A DNA stretch of 64,000 nucleotides from Desulfarculia bacterium. Its GTDB lineage: Bacteria; Desulfobacterota; Desulfarculia; G963662305. The DNA lies in contig OY759352.1 of NCBI GenBank assembly GCA_963662305.1, positions 818,746-882,745 of the forward strand, in the 5' to 3' direction. The notes beneath the pieces are model-generated. The model saw only the letters and a program-made list of their open reading frames with translations, was not told the DNA's origin and did not search any database. Positions 38,149 through 50,953 of the stretch are shown in pieces (the first letter of the stretch is position 1; each line of letters starts with the position of its first letter). The translations under genes were made by a program, and so were the position numbers.

Positions 38149-38770
38149 GCAGCCATATTGGTTTCAAGGGCCAACGGGCTGATATGCCCATCGGCGCCGG
38201 GCCTACCGGTCCGGTTGCAGTCAACTTCAATGCCTCGAAGACAGCCCGGCGCATATCTTCACGGGTGGCAATGCTCTCGCCGTGGATCAGCTCGACCTTG
38301 AGGGGCTGGTTCGCCGCCGCAGGCAAATCGTGCTTGGAATCGGTTGGGGCCCTGAACTTCCTGGCCGCCTTGGCCACCAGCCTTGCCGACGCGTGCTTTT
38401 GGCCACGGTCTTGCGGTTGTATGAATGCTCCCGCTCATCAAGATCAAGGGTCGGCCCCACCGCGCCGCTGCGGCCTTTGCGGAAGGCGGAAACCTTTGCA
38501 ACCGGTCGGTCCAGCTTCACCCGACCAAACTGCCTTTGACTTGGGTTTTGAAGCCTATGCCGCCAGGCATAGAGCTGGGAGTCGTGCAGTCCCAACTGCT
38601 CGGCCGCGCCGGCCACTCCGACCTGCTCGGCCAAGCCCAGGGCCTCAGACTCATATTCCATTGAGTAGCGACTGCGTGTTGCTTGGGTCTGCTTTTTCTG
38701 GGAGGCATGGATCACTTCCATTGAGAAATTTACTCGCTTAACGGAGTGTCCGTCAAAATTGGGTAGATCA
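38115..38770 (-). mobile_element. Internally deleted IS3-type element (656 bp) with both terminal repeats
   Basis: Ends TGATCCTACCCAGAAACAACGGACA (38115) and GTGTCCGTCAAAATTGGGTAGATCA (38770); orfA piece EALGLAEQVGVAGAAEQLGL..SQLYAWR fused to orfB scraps; no target duplication. Confidence 0.78.
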
Positions 38771-39096
38771 CTTTTCGCCGAGAATATATTATCGCTCAAA
38801 ACATAATTTTATAATTACCTCCCATTGAAAAATTAGTTAACTCAGAATACAGTATAAATATTGGAGAGGAGAATTCTGAGACGAGTCAACTTCTCAATAC
38901 ATGGTGTCGATAGAATGCGGGCGGGATCGAAATAATTCGAAGGGATTTTTACTTCTTGAGCTATGTAACTTCTATTAAGTATGAAGCTTGCCCATGGCAA
39001 CGATAGACTCATAAAAACATGAAAAAATAAATAGTAAAATAATAATAATTTGATCAATGGCCAAGTAAACATGAAGGGTGGTTGAGGGAGGTTCTT

Positions 39097-40056
39097 ATGA
39101 CCCAGAGAGAAAAGAGGGACGCACTTACCGAAAACAGGATCTTATCAGCCGTAAACCAAATTTTTCAAAAGGCGGTCACCTGCGAGAGTGAGGAAGACCT
39201 GGTCAAGAAATGCCTCTCCGTTGCCGAAAAATTGACCCAAAGCGTTTTCGGCTTTATCGGCGAGATCAACCACCGGGGGCGTTTTGACACCATCGGACTG
39301 AGTGATCCGGGGTGGGACGATTGCACCATTAACAAAGGAGGCGCCACCAAGATGATCTTGGATATGGAACTCAGGGGCATATGGTCCAGGGTGCTTTTGG
39401 ATGAAGAATCGATAATCGTCAATGACCCTGCCAGCCATCCGGACAGCGTGGGCGTTCCCGCAAACCATCCGCCTCTCATCCGGTTTTTGGGTGTGCCCCT
39501 CAAATCGGGAGGAAAAGTGACGGGCATGATCGCCCTGGCCAACAAACCGGAGGATTATACCGAGGAAGACCGCGTGACTATTGAGGCCTTGAACCTGCCC
39601 ATAATGGAGGCCCTTACCCGGAATCGGGCCGAACAGGCTCTGGCCAGGCAGGCCCAGGAGATACTGGAACTTTCCATTCCGGTGATCCAGATCTGGGAGG
39701 GAATAATCATCGCTCCCTTGATTGGCACTCTGGATTCGGAACGGACCCAGGGCTTCCTGGAAAAGTTCCTGTCAGGGATCGTCGAAACCAAATCCTCGCT
39801 GGCCTTGCTGGATATCACCGGTGTCCCCACGGTGGATACCAGAACCGCTCAGCACCTGATCGAGGCTATCACCTCCGCCAAGCTTTTGGGAACCAAAGTA
39901 ATCTTAACCGGAGTTAGGCCCAGCATCGCCCAGACCTTGGTCCACTTGGGAATTGACTTGGAGGGGATTGAGACTAAAGCCTCCCTGTCCAGTGGATTTA
40001 AAAAGGCCATCGAATTAATCGGGTTGGAAATCAAAACCAAATCCAGTCAAGTCTGA
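39097..40056 (+). CDS. rsbR: Stressosome RsbR paralog 1: GAF + STAS
   Basis: GAF with NDPASHPDSVGVPANHPPLIRFLGVPL; STAS ELSIPVIQIWEGI..PLIGTLDSER..DITGVPTVDT..GVRPSIAQTLVHLGID. Confidence 0.85.
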   Translation: MTQREKRDALTENRILSAVNQIFQKAVTCESEEDLVKKCLSVAEKLTQSVFGFIGEINHRGRFDTIGLSDPGWDDCTINKGGATKMILDMELRGIWSRVLLDEESIIVNDPASHPDSVGVPANHPPLIRFLGVPLKSGGKVTGMIALANKPEDYTEEDRVTIEALNLPIMEALTRNRAEQALARQAQEILELSIPVIQIWEGIIIAPLIGTLDSERTQGFLEKFLSGIVETKSSLALLDITGVPTVDTRTAQHLIEAITSAKLLGTKVILTGVRPSIAQTLVHLGIDLEGIETKASLSSGFKKAIELIGLEIKTKSSQV

Positions 40057-40097: not shown

Positions 40098-40910
40098 ATG
40101 ACCTGTAAGGTTAAGAAAGACGATATCCACAAAACTGTCCTTGAGGCCATGGATGAGGTCATCTATGTGGCCGACCCTGATACCTATGAGGTTCTCTACG
40201 GCAACCCGGCCATGAAAAAGGTGTGGGGGGAGTGCGAGGGCCGGATCTGCCATGAGGTTCTCCAAAACAGATCCGATCCTTGCCCTTTCTGCACCAATGA
40301 TCTTATCTTCGGCGAATATTTGGGGCGTTCCTATGTCTGGGAATTCCAAAACGAGCTCAGCAAGGGTTGGTTCCGCTGCGTTGATAAGGCCATCGACTGG
40401 CCGGACGGGCGGAAGGTCCGCTACGAGATGGCGGTTGATATCACCAAGCAAAAGGAGGCTGAGGAGGTAGTCACCCGGCAAAGCCAGGAGATAATGGCTC
40501 TTTCAACCCCGGTGATAACGGCCTGGGAGGGAATTATGGTCGCCCCCCTGATCGGTGTGCTGGATTCCCAGCGGGCCCAAAGGTTCATGGAAAGGCTGCT
40601 GTCCTCAGTGGTCGAAACCAAATCGCCTATTGCCCTGGTAGACATTACCGGCGTACCCGTCATCGACACCCAAACAGCCCAGTACCTGATCGAGGCGGTC
40701 ACGGCCACCAGGCTTTTGGGCTCCAAGGTGATCATAACCGGTATCAAGCCGGCCATAGCCCAAACCCTGACGCATCTTGGATTTTCCATGCCGGACGTCA
40801 TAACAGAGGCCTCTCTGGCAAATGGCTTTAAAAAGGCTCTCCAGATGCTGGGGCTGCATATATCCTCCGGAAACGGAGCGGCCCGACAAGAAACCCGGGA
40901 GGAGGATTAG
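40098..40910 (+). CDS. rsbR: Stressosome RsbR paralog 2: Cys-rich PAS + STAS
   Basis: PAS with CEGRICHEVLQNRSDPCPFC; STAS LSTPVI.AWEGI..PLIGVLDSQR..DITGVPVIDT. Confidence 0.85.
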   Translation: MTCKVKKDDIHKTVLEAMDEVIYVADPDTYEVLYGNPAMKKVWGECEGRICHEVLQNRSDPCPFCTNDLIFGEYLGRSYVWEFQNELSKGWFRCVDKAIDWPDGRKVRYEMAVDITKQKEAEEVVTRQSQEIMALSTPVITAWEGIMVAPLIGVLDSQRAQRFMERLLSSVVETKSPIALVDITGVPVIDTQTAQYLIEAVTATRLLGSKVIITGIKPAIAQTLTHLGFSMPDVITEASLANGFKKALQMLGLHISSGNGAARQETREED

Positions 40911-40914
40911 TCGA

Positions 40915-42243
40915 ATGCCTTGCAACTCGATAACCGCTCCCCTGGGAGAGGGCTTCTACCGGGAAATAGTTGAACAAACTGAAGATCTCATCACCATTGT
41001 TGACCGGGAAGGGAAGATCCTTTTCGTAAATAAGGCCGCCGAAAAGGTGTACGGCCATTCCCAGGAAGAGTGCATCGATAAGCCGGTCTTTAGTTTTATC
41101 CATCCCGATGATTCCCGAAAAACCCAGGAAGCCTTTCAGGACTGGTTGGCCCGGGGTTTGGACTCGACAACATTCGAAAATAGACAACTGAGCGCCACCG
41201 GCCGGGTAATCCACATGTATTGGACGATTTCCTTTATCAGAGACGACCGAGGAGAGCTTAAGACGGTCAAAGGCATCGCTCGGGATATAACCCAGCTCAA
41301 GGAAATGGAATCACAGCTCAAACAGAAATCGAGCGAACTCAATAAACGGGTCAAGGAGCTGACCTGCCTTTACCGGCTGGCCGAAGTAGTGGAAGAACCC
41401 GGAACTGATATTCCCACCATCATGACCAAGGCGGTCCAGTTGCTCCCTTCCGGGTGGAAGTATTCGAATATCGCCTCCGCCCGGATCGTTATTGAGGGGC
41501 GTGAATATATCGCACCGGGATTCAACCCTTCTCCCTGGCGGATATCCCGAAGGCTCATGGTAAATAAAGAAGAGATCGGCGAGGTGGAAATCTATTACCA
41601 CGAGAAAATGCCAGATGCCGACGAAGGGCCGTTTTCCAAGGATGAGAGGTCTCTCATCAATGCAATCGCCGAGCGTTTATCCAGAGCCTGGGATCGTATC
41701 AGGACCCAGAAGTTGCTGAAAGAACATAAGGACTCCTTGGAGGAATTGGTCGCCCAACGAACCGCCGAGCTTGAACACAAAATAAACGAGATAGAAGAAA
41801 GAGAAGAGACCATCACCCAACAAGCCGTCGAGATCATGGAGCTATCGACTCCGGTCATCCAGGCTTGGGAAGGGCTGGTTGTGGTACCCATGATCGGAAT
41901 CCTGGACAGCCAGCGGACCCAGCAACTTCTGGATCGTTTTTTGGAGCAGGTGGTGGAGACAAAAGCGTCGATCGCCCTCATGGATATCACCGGCGTTCCC
42001 ACCATCGATACCCAGACCGCACACCACCTGATCGAGGCAGTCACCTCAGCCAGGCTTCTTGGAACAAGAGTGATAATCACGGGCGTCAGGGCCAGCATCG
42101 CCCAAACCTTGGTCCAACTGGGTGTTGATCTCAGCTGGATTGAAACAAATTCATCCCTGATATCCGGAATGCGATCCGCATTCAGACAACTAGGTTACAG
42201 GATAAGCGGTGGGATGTCTTCTGGAATGGAGGTACCACAATGA
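40915..42243 (+). CDS. rsbR: Stressosome RsbR paralog 3: PAS + GAF-like + STAS
   Basis: PAS (IHPDD..ARDIT), RVKELTCLY..LPSGW.Y domain, coiled coil LEELVAQRTAEL, STAS ELSTPVIQAWEG. Confidence 0.85.
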   Translation: MPCNSITAPLGEGFYREIVEQTEDLITIVDREGKILFVNKAAEKVYGHSQEECIDKPVFSFIHPDDSRKTQEAFQDWLARGLDSTTFENRQLSATGRVIHMYWTISFIRDDRGELKTVKGIARDITQLKEMESQLKQKSSELNKRVKELTCLYRLAEVVEEPGTDIPTIMTKAVQLLPSGWKYSNIASARIVIEGREYIAPGFNPSPWRISRRLMVNKEEIGEVEIYYHEKMPDADEGPFSKDERSLINAIAERLSRAWDRIRTQKLLKEHKDSLEELVAQRTAELEHKINEIEEREETITQQAVEIMELSTPVIQAWEGLVVVPMIGILDSQRTQQLLDRFLEQVVETKASIALMDITGVPTIDTQTAHHLIEAVTSARLLGTRVIITGVRASIAQTLVQLGVDLSWIETNSSLISGMRSAFRQLGYRISGGMSSGMEVPQ

Positions 42244-42629
42244 CGGTCGAGTCGGTTTCAGTCAATAAGGTGAGGAATGTTCTTCTCGTTTCTGTTCCGC
42301 CTGATCCGGAGGATGGCATTATTTCCAGCCTTCAAGAAAAAATCCTGGACAGCATGGAGAGATACCATGATCTGCAAGGACTCATAATCGATATATCGAT
42401 GGTCGACACCATGGACTCCTACTTTGCCCGGACCATCATAGAGACGGCCGAGATGGTCCGTTTGATGGGCGGGTTGACCATTGTGGCCGGGATGGCGCCC
42501 AGCGTGGCCATTACCGCCACCCAATTGGGGCTGACTTTCGAAAACCTGTCAACAGCCCTGGATGTTGATTTAGCCCTGGATATGATGCTTGAGAAAAAGG
42601 GCGTGGGGGTTTTTGGTGAAAATTATTGA
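42240..42629 (+). CDS. rsbS: Stressosome scaffold RsbS (single STAS)
   Basis: GLIIDISMVDTMDSYFARTI (phospho-Ser position as in DSF of RsbS), RLMG..TIVAGM.PSVAIT..LGL..TALD. Confidence 0.9.
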   Translation: MTVESVSVNKVRNVLLVSVPPDPEDGIISSLQEKILDSMERYHDLQGLIIDISMVDTMDSYFARTIIETAEMVRLMGGLTIVAGMAPSVAITATQLGLTFENLSTALDVDLALDMMLEKKGVGVFGENY

Positions 42630-43041
42630 CAGTGATTCCCAGGGGCAGACTGAGATTAAGGCTGAAAGCGACATGGTCGCTGTCCGGAAAATCGTTCGGG
42701 AGAGGGCTCAGACCTTGGGGTTTTCTATGACCGAAGTGACCAAAGTCGTCACCGCCGCCTCGGAGCTGGCCCGTAATATTTACAGATACGCCGACAAAGG
42801 GATCATGAAATGGTACCTTTTGCGCAGGGATTCGCAGCAGGGCTTGGAATTGGAGTTCGTGGACAACGGGCCGGGCATTGATAATGTTGAACTGGCCATG
42901 TCACCGGGATTCAGCACCGCCAAGGGTTTGGGATTGGGCTTGTCAGGGGCCAAACGCTTGATGGACGAAATGGAGTTGGACAGCAGATCCGGGCAGGGAA
43001 CCAGAGTGGTCATCCGGAAATGGGTAAGTAATGCGAGATAA
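42616..43041 (+). CDS. rsbT: Ser/Thr kinase RsbT
   Basis: TKVVTAASELARNIYRYA, DNGPGI, GFST..GLGLGLSGAKRLMDE, GQGT.V...KW; GTG start 42616 assumed. Confidence 0.9.
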   Translation: MKIIDSDSQGQTEIKAESDMVAVRKIVRERAQTLGFSMTEVTKVVTAASELARNIYRYADKGIMKWYLLRRDSQQGLELEFVDNGPGIDNVELAMSPGFSTAKGLGLGLSGAKRLMDEMELDSRSGQGTRVVIRKWVSNAR

Positions 43042-44095
43042 GCAACAGCCGGATGAGCAGGAGTCGGGTGACGAATCATTGTCCCGAATTTCCCGCAGGT
43101 TCACCGTCAATACTTCCTCAGACGTGATTGTCGCCCGCCGGGCCTGGCGAAGCCCTATAGCGGATCTTGGCTTTAATGAAAACGCCCAGGCGGAAATCCA
43201 GTTGGTGATTACGGAACTGGGAACCAACCTGGTCAAGCACGCCGGTGGAGGAGAAATATTAATCGAAGGAGTCAGCGACGGCGAACGCCGAGGACTAAGA
43301 ATAGAGACAAGGGATGAAGGCCCCGGCATAGCCTGCCCGGATGAGGCCCTGTCGGATGGATTCTCCACCTCCGGCGGTTTGGGTTACGGGCTGGGGACAG
43401 TCTGCCGTCTTGCCAGCGAGTTTCATATCTCCCCTCCTTCAATGGATAAGCGGGGGGCGCACTTGGTGGCGATTCGGTGGCTGGATCCAGACCCGAAACT
43501 TCAAAAGCGGCCTCCCTTGGATATTGGAGTGGCGACCCGTCACCATCCCGGCATGAAAGTCAACGGGGACGGGTACGTGTTCGAAAATTGGAACGGCTCG
43601 ACCTTGGCCGGGGTAATAGACGGTTTGGGACACGGCCACTTTGCTCACAAGGCAACAGTTACCGCGATCACCCACATTCGCCAATGTTACCGAGATGATC
43701 TGCCTACCCTTTTTCGGGGCGTGGCCAGGGCTTGCCGGCCCACCAGGGGCGTGGTCATGACTCTGGCCCGGTTCGACTCGGAATCGGCCGGGTTGACTCT
43801 GTCCGGGATCGGGAATGTGGAAGCCAGGCTGATAAGGGAGGACGTCTCAACCAGCTTTGTCTCCAGGAGGGGCATTTTGGGGGTGCGCAGTCCAAACCCC
43901 TCCAGCGAAAATTACGTTTGGAGAGCGGACTACATTCTGGTTATCCATTCAGACGGTCTAAGCGCCAGCTGGCGGCCGCGCGATTTCGGCAGTTTATGGG
44001 ACGGCTCCGCCCAATTGATCGCCCGTGACCTTTTAAAGGCCAAATCAAGAGATCATGACGATGCCACGGTTATGGTTATCAAGGGGTCAAAATGA
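43031..44095 (+). CDS. rsbX: RsbT-like HATPase fused to SpoIIE/PP2C phosphatase (RsbX-like)
   Basis: TELGTNLVKHAGGG, DEGPGI, GLGYGL; NGDG, VIDGLGHG, GIGNV, HSDGL, DDAT. Confidence 0.82.
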   Translation: MRDKQQPDEQESGDESLSRISRRFTVNTSSDVIVARRAWRSPIADLGFNENAQAEIQLVITELGTNLVKHAGGGEILIEGVSDGERRGLRIETRDEGPGIACPDEALSDGFSTSGGLGYGLGTVCRLASEFHISPPSMDKRGAHLVAIRWLDPDPKLQKRPPLDIGVATRHHPGMKVNGDGYVFENWNGSTLAGVIDGLGHGHFAHKATVTAITHIRQCYRDDLPTLFRGVARACRPTRGVVMTLARFDSESAGLTLSGIGNVEARLIREDVSTSFVSRRGILGVRSPNPSSENYVWRADYILVIHSDGLSASWRPRDFGSLWDGSAQLIARDLLKAKSRDHDDATVMVIKGSK

Positions 44096-47000
44096 AAGGT
44101 AAAAAAGAGGGCAACGGGTTCCCTGAGCCGTCACTGGGAAGCGGGGATAAAGCCGGGGCTGATCCCAATTTGAGTCTTAAAAAAGCCCTGGATCTCATAG
44201 TGTCCCTAAGGGCCGAACTGTCGGAGGCCCATAGCGAATTGGCCCAGACCAATCAGGAGTTGCTCCAACTCACCCTTGAATTTGAGGATCGGGTGGAGGA
44301 ACGGACAAACGAACTGTTCAATTCACGCGAAAAGCTAAAGAAGGAGATCGAAGAAAGAAAAGCCGCTCAAAAAAAATTGAAAGAGAGCGAAAGATATTAT
44401 CGCTCCATGATCGCCAAACTCCATGAGGATATCATGGTTATCGATCGTGATTATGTGGTAGTTGACATCAATAACTCGTTTCTCCAGACCTATGGTGCTA
44501 CCCGGAAGGAAGTAATTGGGAAATATTGTTACAAGGTAGCGGCCGGTCATCCCGGGCCATGCTGGCAACATGGGATTGACTGTCGTATCGAGAGCGTTTT
44601 CTCCTCCGGAGAACCAAGCCAATGCATCATCAAACAACAACGCCTAAACGGCTCTGAGCTGTATCTGGACACCATTCTCTCCCCCTTAAAGGATAACAAC
44701 GGAGAGGTGATACAGACCATAGTAGCGGTCAGGGATATAACCCCTCTGATTCGCGCTCAGGAGGAGTTGGCCCTCCAAGAGGAAAAGTACCGGAATCTGG
44801 TGGAGACTTCACCCGATGCGATATTAGTATTTGATAAAAAAGGAATCATTGAATTCGCCAATAAAACCGCCGGTTTGTTGTTCAGTAAAGGAAAACAGAA
44901 AGAGCTGATCGGTTGCAGGTACTTCGATTTTATTCCGCCTTCCAACCGGGAGCTGTCCAAAGAGCGGGTTAATGAGCTCTCCCGAGGGAATAACGTATCT
45001 TTCCGGGAGCACAAGGTAAAGGCTTTTGACGGGCGGGAGCTGGAGGTCGAATCCAGCGGTACCGCCTTCAAATATCGGGACAGAGTCCTTTTCCAGGTGA
45101 TAATCAGGGATATTACGGAACGTAAGGCCGGAGAAAGAAAACTCAAAAAGGCCCTGGCTGATTCCAGGTCCCGCCGGAGAGAGATTTCGGCTCTTCTGGA
45201 GGGCGCGGAAGCCTTACTTGCCCAAAAGGATTTCGAAGTAGCGGCCAAAGGGCTATTCAACTCCTGTTGTAAGGCAATAGGCGCTACGGCCGGCTATATG
45301 GCTCTTCTTAACGAGGACACAGGAAACAATGAAGTTTTTTTTCTTGAGTCCGATGGAAAGGAATGCGTGGTCGACCCGGAGTTGCCCATGCCCATCAGGG
45401 GATTGCGCGAGGTGGCCTACCGGAAAAAACAACCTGTGGTGGAGAACGATTTCTCTGAAAGCCGTTGGATGGAGCTCATGCCTGCCGGTCATATCCGCCT
45501 GGACAATGTCCTTTTCGCTCCGCTTATAATGGGAAACCGGGCCGTGGGTCTCATCGGCCTGGCCAATAAACCCGGAGGGTTCAACGATGAGGACAAAAAA
45601 CTGGCGGCCGGATTCGGCGAGTTCGCTGCGCTGGCCCTGAGCCAAAGTCTGGCCGATTCGAGATTGAAAGAGAGCGAGGAACGTTACAGGTCTCTCTACG
45701 ATGACGCTCCCAGCGGCTACTTTTCCGTCAGTGCCCATGACGGCAGAATTATAAGAAGCAACAAAATGGCCCAGCGGATGTTGGGCTATAGTGCGGAAGG
45801 GTTGTCTGGAAGTAATTTAATGGATATTTATGCGGACACTCCCGCAGGCAAGCCCCGGGCAGCGGAAAGGTTTAAAAAAATCCTGGAGGGAGAATCGATT
45901 CGCGACGAAGAAGTAGAGTTGCTGAGGTCGGATAAACAGACCATATGGGGCAGCCTCCAGGTCACCCCCATTTTCGACAAAGATGGAAAGGTGGTGGAGA
46001 GTCGTTCGGTGGTCATCGACATCACTGAAAGGAAAAACCTGGAGGGACAACTTAGGCAGGCCCAAAAGATGGAGGCCATCGGAACCCTGGCCGGAGGCAT
46101 AGCCCACGACTTTAATAATATTCTAACTCCTATCATGGGATACTCCGAACTGCTTCTCAGCGAAACGCCCCAGGATCACATGAATTATCACATGTTGGAG
46201 CAGATTACCAAAGCCAGCCGGAGAGCGCGTCAATTGGTCCACCAAATCCTCACTTTCAGCCGTCAATCGGTGGAGGAGAGAAAACCGCTGATTTTAAATC
46301 CTACCGTTAAAGAGCCCATAAAACTCCTCAGGGCCTCCTTGCCCGCCAGCATTGAGATAAGAGAAGGTATCACCTCCCAAGACCTGGTTGTTTTGGCTGA
46401 CCCGGTTCAGGTGCATCAGATAACCATGAACCTTTGCACCAACGCGGCCCACGCCATGCCCCAGGGCGGAACCCTGGGGATAAAACTAGAAAAAAGAAAA
46501 ATAGAGAATGCAAACGAAGAAGATAGAGCCCTTCCAAGGGGGGATTACGCCTGTCTGACCGTCAGCGACACTGGCACCGGGATCCCGCCGGAGATTATCG
46601 ACCGGATTTTCGAGCCTTATTTCACCACAAAGCCTACAGGGAAAGGCACCGGCCTGGGACTGTCTATAATCCACGGCATCATTAAGAATATGGGCGGAAA
46701 TATCGCCGTACAGAACGATCCCGGTCAGGGTGCCAGCTTCCGGGTATTGCTCCCCCTGTATCAGGAAGAGACCACGGATCAGGACAATAAAAAGGCAATT
46801 CGGGTGGAGGGCTCCGGCAGTATCCTTTTTGTGGATGATGATGAGATGATCGTGGAGATGGTCTGCCATCGACTCTCCAAATGGGGCTTCAGGGTAACCG
46901 GACTTACCGATTGCCGCCAGGCTCTGGACCTGATTGAAAAGGACCCCTACTCATTCGATCTGGTTATCACGGATCTTAGCATGCCCCATATGGAAGGCAC

Positions 47001-47196
47001 GGAAGTAGCCCAACGCATCAGAAAGCTGAACCCTGATGTCCCCATCATCTTGAGCACGGGATTCAGCCGCGATCTGAGCGAGGACGATTTGAACAGCTTC
47101 GGCATCAACGCCCTAATCATGAAGCCGGTGGTGGATCAAGAATTGACTGCCTTAATAGACAAGCTGCTGGCTGGAAAAAAACTAGGCGGGAGCTAA
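44092..47196 (+). CDS. Cytoplasmic hybrid histidine kinase (coiled coil-PAS-PAS-GAF-PAS-HisKA-HATPase-REC), stressosome output
   Basis: QAQKMEAIGTLAGGIAHDFNN, NLCTNA, DTGTGI, FEPYFTTK..GTGLGL, REC VDDD..ITDLSMP..KP; ATGA-type overlap with rsbX. Confidence 0.92.
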   Translation: MKGKKEGNGFPEPSLGSGDKAGADPNLSLKKALDLIVSLRAELSEAHSELAQTNQELLQLTLEFEDRVEERTNELFNSREKLKKEIEERKAAQKKLKESERYYRSMIAKLHEDIMVIDRDYVVVDINNSFLQTYGATRKEVIGKYCYKVAAGHPGPCWQHGIDCRIESVFSSGEPSQCIIKQQRLNGSELYLDTILSPLKDNNGEVIQTIVAVRDITPLIRAQEELALQEEKYRNLVETSPDAILVFDKKGIIEFANKTAGLLFSKGKQKELIGCRYFDFIPPSNRELSKERVNELSRGNNVSFREHKVKAFDGRELEVESSGTAFKYRDRVLFQVIIRDITERKAGERKLKKALADSRSRRREISALLEGAEALLAQKDFEVAAKGLFNSCCKAIGATAGYMALLNEDTGNNEVFFLESDGKECVVDPELPMPIRGLREVAYRKKQPVVENDFSESRWMELMPAGHIRLDNVLFAPLIMGNRAVGLIGLANKPGGFNDEDKKLAAGFGEFAALALSQSLADSRLKESEERYRSLYDDAPSGYFSVSAHDGRIIRSNKMAQRMLGYSAEGLSGSNLMDIYADTPAGKPRAAERFKKILEGESIRDEEVELLRSDKQTIWGSLQVTPIFDKDGKVVESRSVVIDITERKNLEGQLRQAQKMEAIGTLAGGIAHDFNNILTPIMGYSELLLSETPQDHMNYHMLEQITKASRRARQLVHQILTFSRQSVEERKPLILNPTVKEPIKLLRASLPASIEIREGITSQDLVVLADPVQVHQITMNLCTNAAHAMPQGGTLGIKLEKRKIENANEEDRALPRGDYACLTVSDTGTGIPPEIIDRIFEPYFTTKPTGKGTGLGLSIIHGIIKNMGGNIAVQNDPGQGASFRVLLPLYQEETTDQDNKKAIRVEGSGSILFVDDDEMIVEMVCHRLSKWGFRVTGLTDCRQALDLIEKDPYSFDLVITDLSMPHMEGTEVAQRIRKLNPDVPIILSTGFSRDLSEDDLNSFGINALIMKPVVDQELTALIDKLLAGKKLGGS

Positions 47197-47289
47197 CGAG
47201 ATTATGAATCCGACGTCTGAAAAAGTCTTGTTCGATGACGACGAGCCTAACATGCCTTAGTCAAGAAAAACGTTTACAGCCAGCCCCTG

Positions 47290-47582
47290 CCAGTGCATGC
47301 TTTGGGTCACGGTCTTGCGGTTGTATGTATGCCCTGCTCATCAAGATCAAGGGCTGGCCCCACTGCGCCGCGACAGCCTTTGCGGGAGGCGAAAACCTCT
47401 GCAACCAGTCGGTCCGGCTTCTCATGAAAAAGCTGCTGACGACTGGGGTTTTGAAGCCTATACCGCCAGGCATAATAGCCCCTGCGCGGCACCCCAAATG
47501 CCTCGCACTGGGCGCTGATGCTGAATTTGCCTGCCTTCTCCTCCATAAACGCGTACTTCACGTCAGGCTTTTCGCGAAGTAC
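47290..47582 (-). mobile_element. IS3-family orfB N-terminal fragment
   Basis: MKYAFMEEKAGKFSISAQCEAFGVPRRGYYAWR; DNA similar to 38395-38580; cut by IS66 left end. Confidence 0.7.
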
Positions 47583-49091
47583 GTAAGCGTCTTATTGGGT
47601 GCTTCTACTCCGATTGAAATTTATCTGTCATATTGAGTTCCATCGCATGGAGGGTCTCAATATGGCGACAAGTAAGCGAGCGAAGGAACTGGCAGCGAAG
47701 GGCAAGTATTGGAGGAGTCATGTAGCTGCCTGGTCCGACAGCGGTCTGAGCCAGGCCGAGTATTGGCGGCGGTATGGGCTTAAGGCGCACAATTTGTGCT
47801 ACTTGGGTGGAGAAGTTGGGAGGGGCGCGGCCGGTCGGGCTTTCGGCCCCGGAGGCGACTTCATCGGTTGAGATGGTGGAAGTGGATTTCCGGGGAGCAG
47901 GCGAAGCAGTCCCCATGGCCGAATCATCTCCCTTGCGGATAGCCATCGGCGAACGCTTCCGGATCGAGGTAAGAGGCGATTTCGATGCGGCCGTTTTTGA
48001 GAAACTGGCCCTGAGCCTGGCCCTGATTTCGGATCGTCTGGCGTGATCGGGTTGGGCCCGAACAGCCGGGTCTATCTGGCCTTGGGCGCAACAGACATGC
48101 GCAAGGCCATCAACGGGCTGTCGCTCCTGGGGTGGGCGGCCATCTGGATTTAGACGTCTTCACGGGCCGCCTGTTCGCTTTTTGTAACCGGGCCCGGACG
48201 ATCATCAAAATCCTGTACTGGGACCGGAACGGCTTTTGCCTGTGGCAGAAACGGTTGGAGAAACATCTCTTCCAGTGGCCCGAAAGCCGGGACCAGGTCT
48301 TGGAGATAGGCTTCCGGGAACTGGCCTGGCTGTTGGAAGGTCTCGATATAGAACGGGCCAAGGGTCATCCGAGAATAAGTTATTCAACCCTGTTCTAAGG
48401 CTGAAATAGATTGCCCAAACTGACTGATTGGTGTATGTATACAGTCAGTTATGAACACTTCATCCCTGCCGGATAATCCTGATCGGGACACCATAATCGC
48501 CGACCGCGAGGCTGAGATATATCGCTTGGCCGAGCAGGTCCGCCTTCTCAAGGCGCTCCGTTTTCAGGCCCAGTCGGAGAAATCCAGGCCTCATGGCCAC
48601 GAAGTCCAATACTCGCTCTTCAACGAGGCCGAGATGGTCGCGGATGAAGCCGAGGAAGACGACGACAAGGAAACCCAAGTCGGCGCCCATACCCGCAAAA
48701 AGCCTGGCCGGCGGCCCATCTCGCCCGACTATCCCAGGGTCGAGGTGGTTCATGACATCCCGGAAGATGAAAAGGTATGTGGCTGCGGCTGTGAACTGAC
48801 CCGGATCGGCGAGGACGTCAGCTAAAAGCCGGACATCACCCCCCAAAAGATCCAGGTCATCCGCCACATCCGGCCGAAATACGCATGCAAATCATGCGAG
48901 GGCGTGGAGGACGAAGGCCCGACCATCAAAATAGCGGCCATGCCGCCCCAGATCATCCCCCAAGGCATTGTAACCCCGTCCCTTCTGGCCTACATCCTGG
49001 TCAACAAGTTTGCCGACGGGCTGCCTTTCTACCGCCAATCGGCCCTGTTCGACCGCCTGGGCGTGGATCTTTCCCGGGCGACCATGCCCGG
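47583..49091 (+). mobile_element. IS66-family element, 5' half (tnpA, tnpB, tnpC N-terminus; all degraded)
   Basis: TIR GTAAGCGTCTTATTGGGTGCTTCT; tnpA 47662-48046 and tnpB 48043-48398 (TDMRKAING, KILYWDRNGFCLWQKRLEK) frameshifted; tnpC from 48451 with in-frame TAA 48823, ends at SRATM at the IS21 junction. Confidence 0.85.
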
Positions 49092-49971
49092 TGTAAAAGG
49101 CGGAGAGAGAATGTACCAGTGGACGGCCGAAAAGGAGGCGAGAAGGCCGGTTGAAAAATGTACCACTGGCGCCCACTCCATAGTTCGAGTTGAATCGAGC
49201 GTTGGAGGGGTGGAGGATGTACGGCATGGAGATATACGGGAAGGTCCGCCGGGCCTGTATGGTGGAGGGGATGAGCCGCCGGGAGGCGGCGCGTAGATTC
49301 GGGATAGATCGCCGGACGGTATCCAAGATGCTGGAGCATTCGATTCCGCCGGGATATTGTCGAGAGAAGCCGGCCAGGCGGCCCAAAACGAGGCCATTCC
49401 TTGGGATAATCAAACAGATATTGGAATAAGACAAGGATCGCCCGAAGAAGCAGCGTCACACGGTGAAGCGGATCTTCGAGCGGTTACGGGACGAGTTCGG
49501 ATATACGGGCGGCTTGACAATGGTCAAGGATTACGTCCGCGAACTGCGCTTTTGATCCAAGGAGATGTTTGTGCCCTTGGATCATCCACCGGGCGATGCC
49601 CAGGTCGATTTTGGAGAGGCCCGGGTAATAATCGACGGCGTTTTACAAAAGGCCCATTATTTATGCCTCAGCCTGCCCCAGAGCGACGATATGTCCGTGA
49701 CCGCGTTTCCGGCCGAGAGGATCGAGGGTTTGTGCGAAGGGCACAATCTGGCCTTTGCCCATTTCAGTCGAGGAGTCAACCAGGGTCCGCTCAACCTCTC
49801 TGGTCCGATTCAAGGCATGCGACTACTCGGTCCCGTCTGTTTACGGCCACCAGGAAGTCCTGGTCAAGGGCTATGTCCACCAGGTGGTGATCGTCTGCCA
49901 AGGCAAGGAGATCGTCCGTTATCCCCGGTCTTACGAAAAAGAGGACCTGGTTTATAATCCCTTGCACTATA

Positions 49972-50126
49972 TAGAGCGGTTTCATAAATATGTTTCGAAA
50001 GAAGACCGCTCTAAGCGGACCGGACACGGGCCGCCGGTCGCTAAGCGACCGTAAGCCGGGCCAAAACCGCGCTTTTGGCCCGGCGGTCCCTCAAAAACAC
50101 GGAACGTGTTTTTGAGGCTTACTCTA
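49972..50126 (+). mobile_element. Multi-hairpin MITE inserted at a TA in istA
   Basis: Bounded by TAGAG..CTCTA; removal (153 bp) restores CAC TAT ATA AAG ATC (PLHY-I-KILERKP); four internal hairpins. Confidence 0.75.
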
Positions 50127-50518
50127 AAGATCCTGGAGCGTAAACCAAATGCCCTGGACCAGGCCGCGCCGCTCAAGGGCTGGGAGCCGCCTCAAGAGTT
50201 CAACCGCTTGCGCCGGCTCCTGGAACGGCGCTCGGGGAAAAAGGGAAAGCGGGAGTATATCCAGATCCTGAGGTTGCTGGAGATCTTTGACCAGGCCGAG
50301 GTCAGGGCCGGGATCAAAGCGGCCCTCGGCTTGGGTGCGGTCTCCTACGACGCGGTCAAGCATCTGGTCCTGTGCCGGATAGAAGATAAAACGCCCCGGC
50401 TGGACCTTCAAAACTACCCCCATCTGCCCAGGGCCAGGGTCGAGACCACCTCGGCCAAATCCTACACGGCTCTCATGCCCGGGGCGAGTTCATCAACAGG
50501 CGGGAGAATGTCCTGGCC

Positions 50519-50953
50519 GTGGGCAACTCCGGAACAGGCAAGACCCACCTGGCCTTGGCCCTGGGCCTCAGCGCCTGTCAGAACGGCTTTAAGGCCAAGT
50601 TCACCACCGCCGCCGCCCTGGTCAACGAGATGATCGAGGCCAGGGATGAAAAACGGCTCCTTAGGCTTCAAAAACAGATGGCCGGGGTTAATCTCCTGAT
50701 CATCGACGAGCTGGGCTTCGTGCCCTTCTCCAAGACCGGGGCTGAACTACTCTTTGAACTGATCCCGCAAAGATATGAACGCGGCTCGATCCTGATCACC
50801 ACAAACCTGCCCTTTGACCAGTGGCCCGACGTGTTCGGCTCTGAACGCCTCACCGGTGCTCTCCTGGACCGCCTCACCCATCATGTTCACATCCTAATGA
50901 ACGGCCACAGCTATCGCCTCAAGGAATCCAAACGGCTAACAGGCAATACCTGA
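50519..50953 (+). pseudogene. istB: IstB ATPase, N-terminally truncated
   Basis: Walker A GNSGTGKT, Walker B LIIDE; N-terminal part deleted and fused to istA end. Confidence 0.8.

What the first reader, a model, noticed from the sequence alone, without database searches (positions are those of the whole stretch)
39097..40056. RsbR with a DosS/DosT-like heme-GAF signature
Seen: NDPASHPDSVGVPANHPPLIRFLGVPL. Known (recalled, not aligned): M. tuberculosis DosS GAF-A has [22 protein letters not shown], whose second His is the proximal heme ligand. Inference: a heme-GAF replaces the sensor globin as O2/NO/CO input of a stressosome. Many GAFs share this motif without proven heme binding.
Basis: partly seen in the sequence, partly recalled or inferred. 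Interest (0 to 1): 0.7.

Follow-up and report, generated by a model that had tools for sequence, protein, structure and literature searches.

The report
Stressosome sensor with Cys/His GAF domain
This gene encodes a stress-complex sensor protein whose input domain belongs to a very large, unstudied family that resembles the heme-binding gas sensors of mycobacteria, so it may be a new redox or gas input, but heme binding is unproven.

Summary
ORF 39097-40056 (+) encodes a 319-aa GAF-STAS protein. It is the first of three RsbR paralogues, followed by RsbS, RsbT, a HATPase-PP2C protein and a hybrid histidine kinase. The quoted motif is at 39421-39501. By sequence, the GAF's best solved relatives are DosT and DosS GAF-A (profile E 6e-11 and 5e-10; next GAF 5.5e-4). 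His124 falls in the column of the proximal heme ligand, DosS His149.

- The match covers only the C-terminal half of the domain.
- The distal Tyr171 column is Ala here (Ala/Gly/Ser in the family).
- Fold searches do not separate DosS from non-heme GAFs.
- No tool here could test heme binding.

New points:
- The domain belongs to a large, highly conserved, uncharacterised GAF subtype: 1,604 cluster representatives at E<=1e-30, about 50-60% identical across kinases, cyclases, phosphatases and RsbRs.
- His124 and a Cys that the DosS/DosT alignment does not cover (Cys76) are nearly invariant.
- Members occur in Methanobacteriaceae, an order reported to lack protoheme synthesis, which argues against obligate heme.

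Best reading, about 0.45: an Fe-tetrapyrrole redox/gas sensor using His124 and Cys76. Rivals are a thiol or metal sensor and a small-ligand sensor.

The parts
39097..40056 (+). rsbR-like gene, 319 aa: N-terminal helix + GAF (aa 1-178), linker helix, STAS (aa 197-288)
   Evidence: ORF. Pfam GAF_2 E 8.7e-22 and STAS E 1.7e-12. STAS half matches Listeria innocua RsbR 7b0u at E 1.7e-31. AF2 model has mean pLDDT 87.1.
39184..39591 (+). GAF_2 domain (aa 30-165), member of the Cys/His GAF subtype
   Evidence: GAF-only AF2 model has pLDDT 89.6 and pTM 0.85.
39421..39501 (+). the reported motif NDPASHPDSVGVPANHPPLIRFLGVPL (aa 109-135): loop between strands 3 and 4, plus strand 4
   Evidence: Translation. 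Alignment to DosT and DosS.
39466..39468 (+). His124 codon, in the column of DosS His149 / DosT His147 (proximal heme ligand)
   Evidence: Conserved in 349 of 352 high-scoring domains.
39322..39324 (+). Cys76 codon (PGW..C loop after strand 2), near-invariant in the subtype; this part of the domain is not covered by the alignment to DosS/DosT
   Evidence: Conserved in 347 of 352 high-scoring domains. Lies in the lower-confidence loop of the model.
39685..39960 (+). STAS domain; Ser214 and Thr248 lie in the columns of the Listeria RsbR phospho-sites T175 and T209
   Evidence: Alignment, counted by hand. Phospho-sites from 10.1101/2025.03.04.640944 (passages).
40098..40910 (+). second RsbR paralogue, PAS_8 (Cys-rich) + STAS, 270 aa
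   Evidence: 51% identical to the first paralogue over linker + STAS.
40822..42243 (+). third RsbR paralogue, PAS + unassigned middle region + STAS, 473 aa as the longest ORF (start uncertain; overlaps the previous gene)
42240..42629 (+). RsbS (single STAS, 129 aa); Ser60 lies in the column of Listeria RsbS Ser56
   Evidence: PDB RsbS 6jhk E 3.1e-16 and 6qcm_A E 6.7e-16, with alignment.
42589..43041 (+). RsbT-like switch kinase (HATPase_c_2, 150 aa)
   Evidence: Assigned by domain content and position after RsbS; no PDB sequence match at E<=1e-5.
43031..44095 (+). HATPase_c + SpoIIE/PP2C protein (354 aa), in the position of the feedback phosphatase RsbX
   Evidence: The same fused form follows RsbT in L005.
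44092..47196 (+). hybrid histidine kinase (PAS x3, GAF_2, HisKA, HATPase_c, REC; 1034 aa), likely output module
   Evidence: HK + REC genes follow the module in L005 and L007.
38287..38799 (-). transposase-type HTH ORF (HTH_Tnp_1) just upstream of the operon
48451..50953 (+). IS remnants downstream: IS66 leucine-zipper piece, IS66 DDE piece, IstB/IS21 piece

Best explanation
The gene encodes one of three alternative sensor subunits (RsbR paralogues) of a stressosome.

Shown by homology: its STAS domain should co-assemble with RsbS into the core that holds the kinase RsbT. It keeps both RsbT target residues (Ser214, Thr248).

Inferred: its N-terminal GAF domain projects from the core as the input. 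The GAF belongs to a large, highly conserved, uncharacterised subtype. Its strand3-strand4 loop and following strands are homologous to the heme-proximal segment of DosS/DosT GAF-A. His124 would ligate the iron of a heme or related Fe-tetrapyrrole. The near-invariant Cys76, on the flexible loop over the pocket, would act either as a switchable sixth (thiolate) ligand or as a covalent anchor. The small residue at the DosS Tyr171 position would leave room for that loop.

Proposed signalling (inferred): a change in redox state, or binding of a small ligand (O2, NO, CO, H2S) in this sulfite-reducer-type anaerobe, would change the GAF conformation. This would alter RsbT-dependent phosphorylation of RsbR/RsbS and release RsbT. 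The signal would pass to the adjacent hybrid histidine kinase, and the HATPase-PP2C protein would reset the complex.

Confidence differs by part: about 0.9 that it is an RsbR-type subunit with this GAF subtype, and about 0.45 that the cofactor is heme or an Fe-tetrapyrrole.
For: RsbR identity:
- STAS half versus Listeria innocua RsbR, E 1.7e-31; versus Vibrio vulnificus 7o0i_B, E 1.7e-26.
- The phospho-site columns are kept.
- RsbS (E 3e-16, Ser60 = Ser56 column), RsbT and PP2C genes follow.
- The same gene order, with a GAF-STAS or PAS-GAF-STAS gene first, occurs in a Myxococcota MAG (L005) and a Kapabacteria MAG (L007).

DosS/DosT link:
- Single sequence: E 2.3e-9 and 6e-8.
- Profile of 20 family GAFs: DosT 5.8e-11, DosS 5e-10. 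The next solved GAFs are Nlh1 5.5e-4, NreA 0.04, PtsP 0.05, fRMsr 0.5.
- His124 lies in the His149 column. Mutation of that His abolishes heme binding in DosS (PMC4082495 passages).
- Structure: DosS 2w3d_B Z 18.5, rmsd 2.4 A, 141 residues aligned, 22% identity, model 31-178 = DosS 63-205. DosT 2vzw_B Z 18.3, 24% identity. These are the highest identities among the listed rows.

Conservation among 352 near-full-length domains scoring >=200 bits: His124 349, Cys76 347, Trp73 343, Asn149 347. Among 393 near-full-length domains, Cys76 and His124 occur together in 368, both are absent in 9, His only in 11, Cys only in 5.

Context:
- The genome has DsrA above the curated cut-off (587 bits against 392.85).
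- It has ALAD, so tetrapyrrole synthesis is present.
- A heme-binding RsbR (sensor globin) is an established precedent in Vibrio (PMC9237108, PMC4976288, passages).
Against: - No test of cofactor binding was possible. The structure tools return no coordinates, so the orientation of His124 and the position of Cys76 relative to the pocket are unverified.
- Only the C-terminal half aligns with DosS/DosT. The N-terminal half aligns with a negative score (-3.2 bits).
- The distal Tyr171 column is Ala146. In the family it is Ala 185, Gly 126, Ser 38, Thr 2, Cys 1 of 352.
- The fold does not discriminate: PtsP GAF 3trc has Z 18.8, against DosS 18.5, and Foldseek ranks PtsP first among GAFs.
- The subtype, with Cys76 and His124 intact, occurs in Methanobacteriaceae/Methanobacterium records (P0168; the cluster of P0206). 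A survey found AhbABCD, the protoheme pathway, in 0 of 102 Methanobacteriales genomes (PMC8351635, Table 2 rows seen in passages).
- His in this column is not unique to heme GAFs: 2 other GAF_2 domains of this genome have it.
- A few family members replace His124 with Tyr, Phe, Pro or Arg.
Confidence: 0.45

Rival explanations
1. Thiol/imidazole redox or metal sensor without heme. Cys76 would be a reactive thiol (oxidised, nitrosylated, persulfidated or alkylated) tuned by His124. Alternatively Cys76 and His124, perhaps with His114, would bind a metal ion. The modification or metal would change the GAF conformation and so the stressosome output.
For: - Cys76 and His124 are the two most conserved side chains with chemistry in the subtype (347 and 349 of 352) and are mostly gained or lost together.
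- The subtype occurs in Methanobacteriaceae records, an order where 0 of 102 genomes surveyed encode protoheme synthesis (PMC8351635).
- GAF_2 also contains the thiol enzyme fRMsr, which is a structural match (3mmh Z 16.8).
- RdmS of Methanosarcina is described in a review as a thiol-based redox sensor with PAS/GAF domains (PMC6944256 passages).
Against: - Sequence similarity to fRMsr is at chance level (profile E 0.5), against 1e-10 for DosS/DosT.
- Only two strongly conserved potential ligands lie on the pocket side. Cys39 lies in the helix that corresponds to DosS helix 1 behind the sheet (inference; no coordinates).
- The loop shared with DosS/DosT is the heme-proximal one.
Confidence: 0.3
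2. Small-molecule (metabolite or nucleotide) binding GAF. His124, Cys76, Trp73, Asn149 and Asp158 would simply line a ligand pocket, as in the NreA, PtsP, Nlh or PDE GAF domains.
For: - Most characterised GAFs bind small ligands.
- The structural matches to PtsP, PDE, Lcd1 and Nlh2 GAFs are as good as those to DosS (Z 16-19).
- The very high conservation across all output types fits any universal ligand.
Against: - There is no sequence-level relation to any ligand-binding GAF of known specificity (E 5.5e-4 or worse).
- No nucleotide-binding signature was identified; this was not specifically tested.
- Near-invariant Cys plus His is unusual for plain metabolite pockets. This last point is inference.
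Confidence: 0.15
3. Exactly DosS/DosT-like: a five-coordinate heme b on His124 that binds O2/NO/CO directly, with Cys76 irrelevant.
For: - Same evidence as for the DosS/DosT link.
- The Glu87 column appears to be Gly55, as in the O2-binding DosT (Gly85). That alignment is weak (PMC4082495 passages).
Against: - The distal Tyr needed for ligand discrimination in DosS is absent (PMC4082495).
- Near-invariance of Cys76 would be left unexplained.
- The N-terminal half is not alignable.
Confidence: 0.1

Closest known systems
DosS (DevS) and DosT GAF-A heme domains of mycobacterial sensor kinases (PDB 2w3d, 2vzw and others)
   Same: - GAF fold.
- Best solved relatives by sequence.
- Shared loop HP.S.G.P..HPP...FLGVP, with the proximal His column kept.
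- 22-24% identity over about 141 aligned residues.
   Different: - The distal Tyr171 column holds a small residue.
- The N-terminal half is unalignable and about 7 residues longer between model residues 31 and 124 (offsets).
- There is an extra near-invariant Cys76 and a PGW..C loop.
- It is a single GAF fused to STAS, not tandem GAFs on a histidine kinase.
- Heme binding is unproven.
Sensor-globin RsbR of Vibrio vulnificus / V. brasiliensis (O2-sensing stressosome)
   Same: - RsbR-RsbS-RsbT-phosphatase module followed by two-component proteins.
- The STAS half matches 7o0i_B at E 1.7e-26.
- Shares the concept of a cofactor-bearing gas or redox input (PMC9237108, PMC4976288).
   Different: - The input domain is a GAF, not a globin.
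- There are three RsbR paralogues with different sensors.
- The phosphatase carries an extra N-terminal HATPase-like domain.
MsmS / RdmS of Methanosarcina acetivorans (PAS/GAF kinases; heme reported covalently bound through a Cys of a GAF domain)
   Same: Possibly the same Cys + His logic in a GAF. I recall Cys656 and His702, a spacing of 46 residues, against 48 between Cys76 and His124. This is recalled only: the primary papers are not held, and the reviews seen say only 'heme-based' and 'c-type heme'.
   Different: The output there is an H-box-less kinase, not STAS.
Bacillus/Listeria RsbR (non-heme globin) and YtvA (LOV-STAS)
   Same: C-terminal STAS with the same phospho-site columns. NCBIfam YtvA_fam matches the STAS part only, 78.5 bits against a cut-off of 250.
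   Different: Different sensor domain. Here the output is a two-component system, not the RsbU/RsbV/RsbW/SigB route: no RsbU_N and no sigma factor gene was seen in the operon.

Membership tests
RsbR-type stressosome co-antagonist | C-terminal STAS domain homologous to RsbR of solved stressosomes | tested here: met
   E 1.7e-31 to 7b0u_A over aa 177-315 and 1.7e-26 to 7o0i_B. Pfam STAS E 1.7e-12.
RsbR-type stressosome co-antagonist | Phospho-acceptor residues at the columns of Listeria RsbR T175 and T209 | tested here: met
   Ser214 and Thr248, by counting the printed alignment. Sites taken from 10.1101/2025.03.04.640944. Both are near-invariant in alignment A1.
RsbR-type stressosome co-antagonist | Encoded with RsbS, the RsbT kinase and a PP2C phosphatase | tested here: met
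   Genes at 42240-44095. The same order is found in L005 and L007.
RsbR-type stressosome co-antagonist | Assembles with RsbS into the pseudo-icosahedral core and sequesters RsbT | not testable with these tools
   Needs co-expression and size-exclusion or cryo-EM.
DosS/DosT-type heme GAF-A | GAF fold superposable on DosS/DosT GAF-A | tested here: met
   Z 18.3-18.5, rmsd 2.3-2.6 A, 139-143 residues aligned. Non-heme GAFs score the same.
DosS/DosT-type heme GAF-A | Proximal His (DosS His149 / DosT His147) | tested here: met
   His124 lies in that column. Numbering follows the construct described in PMC4082495.
DosS/DosT-type heme GAF-A | Distal Tyr (DosS Tyr171 / DosT Tyr169) that hydrogen-bonds the bound ligand | tested here: not met
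   The column holds Ala146. In the family it is Ala/Gly/Ser in 349 of 352 and Tyr in none.
DosS/DosT-type heme GAF-A | Distal network residues Glu87/His89 (Gly85 in DosT) | tested here: inconclusive
   Only a weak alignment (-3.2 bits) covers strand 1. It puts Gly55 in the Glu87 column.
DosS/DosT-type heme GAF-A | Binds heme b | not testable with these tools
   The models carry no ligand and no coordinates are returned.
DosS/DosT-type heme GAF-A | Tandem GAF-A/GAF-B on a histidine kinase paired with DosR | tested here: not met
   The architecture is GAF-STAS.
MsmS/RdmS-type covalent-heme GAF | A GAF Cys that binds the heme, plus a proximal His | not tested
   Cys76 and His124 exist and are near-invariant. 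No MsmS/RdmS sequence could be obtained and the primary papers are not held. The resemblance is recalled.
Free methionine-R-sulfoxide reductase (fRMsr, GAF_2) | Sequence membership, with catalytic and resolving Cys residues | tested here: inconclusive
   Profile E 0.5 to 3mmh. The structural match of Z 16.8 is at fold level only.

The most novel reading that the evidence does not exclude
The GAF of this RsbR would represent a very large, still uncharacterised class of cofactor-bearing sensor modules: 1,604 cluster representatives at E<=1e-30, found in bacteria and methanogenic archaea. The module is plugged into Ser/Thr kinases, histidine kinases, c-di-GMP enzymes, PP2C phosphatases, LuxR-type regulators and stressosomes. 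It would use an invariant His (the DosS His149 position) and an invariant Cys as a switchable His/Cys (thiolate) or covalently anchored Fe-tetrapyrrole site. In heme-less methanogens the cofactor might be a tetrapyrrole other than protoheme, or a metal. This would be a redox/gas sensor class distinct from DosS/DosT, and it would give the first chemically defined non-globin input of a stressosome.
Probability: 0.35. Interest if true: 0.8.

Novelty: new variant of a known kind. Interest (0 to 1): 0.58.

Why it matters
For most stressosomes the activating signal is unknown. The only chemically defined input is the heme globin of Vibrio RsbR. A GAF-type RsbR with a conserved His/Cys site would give a second tractable input, in an anaerobe that also carries two PAS-type paralogues on the same core.

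The domain is also one member of a widespread, nearly invariant sensor module with no solved structure and no known ligand. Identifying its cofactor once would annotate more than a thousand signalling-protein clusters across many phyla.

Tried and rejected
- Complex prediction with two copies of the GAF (alignment A2) and two hemes riding along gave 'no answer' (score 0.00 in two runs, controls not folded, no contacts given). It says nothing either way.
- The structure tools return no coordinates, and /data holds no model file. The planned check of His124 orientation and the Cys76-iron distance could not be done.
- Primary papers on the DosS and DosT structures and on MsmS are not held. The heme-contact list and the MsmS residues therefore could not be checked.
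- I found no way to reach a Methanosarcina genome. It appears only as an unnamed-handle-free control.
- The search of earlier findings by sequence and by words returned nothing.
- The ESM Atlas returned only generic 'GAF domain-containing protein' clusters.
- Literature searches for a GAF-type RsbR or a heme GAF outside DosS/DosT/MsmS found none. In the two papers that I opened, GAF appears only as an abbreviation or in other contexts. The other papers were seen only in the listing.
- A FastTree of 360 GAF domains is poorly resolved. STAS-linked domains cluster: at least 17 changes on the tree, against 93-103 in the 5 shuffles printed of 200 run. The query slice was counted there as non-STAS. 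I draw no conclusion on the number of fusion events.
- Bilin as cofactor was considered and set aside. The subtype is common in strict anaerobes, and bilin formation from heme needs O2. This rests on established knowledge and was not tested.
Full report
**What is there.** The ORF 39097-40056 (+) starts at the ATG; the longest ORF would begin at a TTG at 39082. It encodes 319 aa, and an identical 319-aa protein is in the public protein collection (P0002). Pfam finds GAF_2 at aa 30-165 (E 8.7e-22) and STAS at aa 197-288 (E 1.7e-12).

**The stressosome context.** The C-terminal half matches the RsbR chains of solved stressosomes: Listeria innocua 7b0u at E 1.7e-31 over aa 177-315, and Vibrio vulnificus 7o0i_B at E 1.7e-26. 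Counting along the printed alignment, Ser214 and Thr248 fall in the columns of Listeria RsbR T175 and T209. These are the RsbT phosphorylation sites (10.1101/2025.03.04.640944, abstract and passages). Both residues are near-invariant among 31 aligned homologues.

Downstream on the same strand lie:
- A second RsbR paralogue (PAS_8 + STAS, 40098-40910), 51% identical to the first over linker and STAS.
- A third paralogue (PAS + STAS, 40822-42243).
- RsbS (42240-42629). It matches B. subtilis RsbS 6jhk at E 3.1e-16, and Ser60 lies in the column of Listeria RsbS Ser56.
- An RsbT-like HATPase_c_2 protein (42589-43041).
- A HATPase_c + SpoIIE/PP2C protein (43031-44095).
- A 1034-aa hybrid histidine kinase with PAS, GAF_2, HisKA, HATPase_c and REC (44092-47196).

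The same order recurs in a Myxococcota MAG (L005) and a Kapabacteria MAG (L007): a GAF-STAS or PAS-GAF-STAS gene, further RsbR genes, RsbS, RsbT, the gene in the phosphatase position (a HATPase-PP2C protein in L005; a 336-aa protein with no Pfam match in L007), a histidine kinase and a receiver. This is the RSTX-plus-two-component layout described for sensor-globin stressosomes (PMC9237108, section 10 read in full). The differences here are that the sensor is a GAF and the phosphatase carries an extra N-terminal HATPase-like domain.

**The DosS/DosT resemblance.** The GAF half alone (aa 1-178) was searched against all PDB chains. The hits were DosT GAF-A (2vzw, E 2.3e-9) and DosS/DevS GAF-A (E 6e-8 to 8e-8). 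The next hits were Nlh1 (0.03) and PtsP (1).

A profile of 20 GAF domains of the same subtype, taken from proteins of different architecture (alignment A2), sharpens this. DosT scores 5.8e-11 and DosS 5e-10. Nlh1 scores 5.5e-4, NreA 0.04, PtsP 0.05 and fRMsr 0.5.

The aligned stretch runs from about aa 91 to 166, that is from before strand 3 into the last helix. It contains the shared loop.

The DosS crystal construct is Asp63-Arg210 behind five extra residues (PMC4082495, passages). The aligned DosS His is therefore chain position 92, which is His149, the proximal ligand whose mutation abolishes heme binding. The query residue in that column is His124.

**Limits of the resemblance.**
- By the same counting, DosS Tyr171 (chain position 114) aligns with Ala146.
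- The N-terminal half aligns only with a negative score. That weak alignment puts Gly55 in the Glu87 column, which is Gly85 in DosT.
- Fold comparison does not discriminate. With the GAF-only AF2 model (pLDDT 89.6, pTM 0.85), PtsP GAF 3trc gives Z 18.8. DosS 2w3d_B gives Z 18.5 (rmsd 2.4 A, 141 aligned residues, 22% identity). DosT 2vzw_B gives Z 18.3 (24% identity). PDE, fRMsr and phytochrome GAFs follow at Z 15-18.
- Foldseek on the whole protein ranks PtsP GAFs just above DosS.
- The loop aa ~70-90 has the lowest confidence in both models.

**A large, nearly invariant GAF subtype.** Searching longer proteins with aa 1-178 found 252 proteins at E<=1e-3, of which the best 120 are listed. Their GAF is 46-60% identical to the query over 90-100% of the 178 residues. 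They include Ser/Thr kinases, histidine and hybrid kinases, GGDEF/HD-GYP proteins, SpoIIE phosphatases and LuxR-type proteins. Source names include Planctomycetota, Zixibacteria, Aminicenantia, Poribacteria, Omnitrophota, Nitrospirota, Thermodesulfobacteriota, Dehalococcoidia and Methanobacteriaceae.

A full HMMER pass of profile A2 over 1.84 billion cluster representatives found 22,870 proteins at E<=1e-3, 9,903 at E<=1e-10 and 1,604 at E<=1e-30.

The GAF-STAS form itself is common. All 120 listed hits of the whole protein carry both GAF_2 and STAS, and by my reading of the table 30 of them also carry PAS families. Identity to the query is 36-82%, leaving out the window's own protein P0002 at 100%.

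None of these proteins carries a functional name beyond 'GAF domain-containing' or 'anti-anti-sigma regulatory factor'. No member of the subtype appears among solved structures.

**Conserved residues.** In 122 GAF domains from the 120 GAF-STAS proteins, His124 is kept in 119, Cys76 in 117, His114 in 110, Cys39 in 107 and Trp73 in 112.

In all 352 near-full-length domains scoring >=200 bits from the three searches, the counts are:

| Residue | Conserved (of 352) |
|---|---|
| His124 | 349 |
| Cys76 | 347 |
| Asn149 | 347 |
| Trp73 | 343 |
| Asp158 | 338 |
| Cys39 | 325 |
| His114 | 310 |

The Tyr171 column holds Ala 185, Gly 126, Ser 38, Thr 2 and Cys 1.

Over 393 near-full-length domains, Cys76 and His124 occur together in 368, both are absent in 9, His alone occurs in 11 and Cys alone in 5. 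These domains are related and are the top hits of my searches. The counts therefore describe the sample and are not a statistical test.

Cys76 sits in the PGW..C loop just after strand 2, in the part that the DosS/DosT alignment does not cover. By topology that loop lies on the pocket side of the sheet. Cys39 lies in the helix that corresponds to DosS helix 1, behind the sheet. Both placements are inferred from the secondary structure and the ranges, because no coordinates were available.

**Controls.** This genome has 21 GAF_2 domains. Only this one belongs to the subtype; the next best is 31% identical. When the 21 are aligned to the family HMM:
- The hydrophobic-Pro-hydrophobic end of the motif is present in nearly all that align.
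- His in the His124 column occurs in 3: this protein, the operon's own kinase, and C2:431068.
- Cys in the Cys76 column occurs only here.

**Evidence bearing on heme.** In favour:
- The specific homology of the proximal loop.
- The near-invariance of the His.
- A small residue where DosS has the distal Tyr, which could make room for the Cys-bearing loop.
- Tetrapyrrole synthesis in the genome (ALAD).
- A lifestyle in which redox, O2, NO, CO or sulfide sensing is plausible (DsrA at 587 bits, above the cut-off).
- The Vibrio precedent of a heme-loaded stressosome.

Against:
- Nothing here measures binding.
- The distal side differs from DosS/DosT.
- The subtype, with Cys76 and His124 intact, occurs in Methanobacteriaceae and Methanobacterium records (P0168, and the cluster of P0206). 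A survey found AhbABCD in 0 of 102 Methanobacteriales genomes (PMC8351635, Table 2 rows seen in passages). The same paper's abstract notes that some strains with heme-binding proteins lack heme synthesis, so this point weakens the heme reading but does not exclude it.

From memory only, the heme of Methanosarcina MsmS is bound covalently by a Cys of a GAF domain, with a His about 46 residues downstream. That would resemble Cys76/His124, which are 48 residues apart. I could not obtain the sequence or the primary paper. This remains a lead, not a test.

**Origin of the operon.**
- The stretch from about 38 to 50 kb has GC 0.51-0.57, against 0.62-0.70 for 26-38 kb.
- It is bracketed by a transposase-type HTH ORF (38287-38799) and by IS66 and IS21 remnants (48451-50953).
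- Among 40 relatives of the same class, 6 have a match at E<=1e-20. Five of these are 39-52% identical and lie in open frames of 929-1694 aa, so they are kinase-type proteins. The sixth is 33% identical, in an open frame of 1265 aa. No GAF-STAS form was found in those searched.

This is consistent with acquisition by transfer, but it does not prove it.

**Verdict.**
- The protein is an RsbR-type stressosome subunit with a GAF input (confidence about 0.9).
- The GAF is the nearest known sequence relative of the DosS/DosT heme domain. It is not a member of that family in the strict sense, because the distal Tyr and the architecture tests are not met.
- I put about 0.45 on an Fe-tetrapyrrole cofactor held by His124 with Cys76 involved, 0.3 on a heme-free thiol/metal sensor, 0.15 on a small-ligand pocket, and 0.1 on a plain DosS-like five-coordinate heme. 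These readings overlap.

No supplementary files were consulted. I found no paper in the held library that describes a GAF-type RsbR or this GAF subtype. Most of the listed papers were seen only as listings.

Noticed in passing
window 40098-40910 (+) and 44092-47196 (+): The PAS domain of the second RsbR paralogue carries a Cys cluster (C-x11-C-x2-C, around aa 51-66). The first PAS of the downstream hybrid kinase has a similar Cys-rich stretch (around aa 146-164). These may be a metal or Fe-S binding PAS type.
   Followed up: no
window 40822-42243 (+): The third RsbR paralogue, taken as the longest ORF, overlaps the previous gene by 89 nt, so its true start may be further downstream. About 150 residues between its PAS and STAS domains have no Pfam match.
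   Followed up: no
window 43031-44095 (+); L005:9755-10783: The PP2C phosphatase in the RsbX position is fused to an N-terminal HATPase_c (RsbW/RsbT-like) domain. The same fusion is present in the Myxococcota MAG operon.
   Followed up: partly
window 38287-38799 (-), 48451-48825, 48904-49296, 50519-50953 (+); GC profile 38-50 kb: The operon sits in a lower-GC stretch (0.51-0.57, against 0.62-0.70 upstream) bracketed by transposase fragments (HTH_Tnp_1, IS66 pieces, IstB piece). It looks like an acquired island with decayed IS elements.
   Followed up: partly
window 44092-47196 (+), GAF at aa 380-516; genome C2:431068-431472 (L003): Two other GAF_2 domains of this genome have His in the His124 column but lack Cys76. 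One is in the operon's own kinase and one is in a 1327-aa open frame elsewhere; the latter has a DosS-like G-H-x-P ... YLGVPV loop.
   Followed up: partly
P0116 and P0119 (alignment): These are tandem GAF-GAF-STAS relatives. The first GAF has lost Cys76 and His124 (Phe in the His column). The second GAF keeps a G-H-V-P loop.
   Followed up: no
window 47235-47636 (+): A 133-aa ORF directly after the hybrid kinase has no Pfam match.
   Followed up: no
P0243-P0252 and other rows: Many proteins carry two matched stretches of the Cys/His GAF profile, so the module also occurs in tandem.
   Followed up: no
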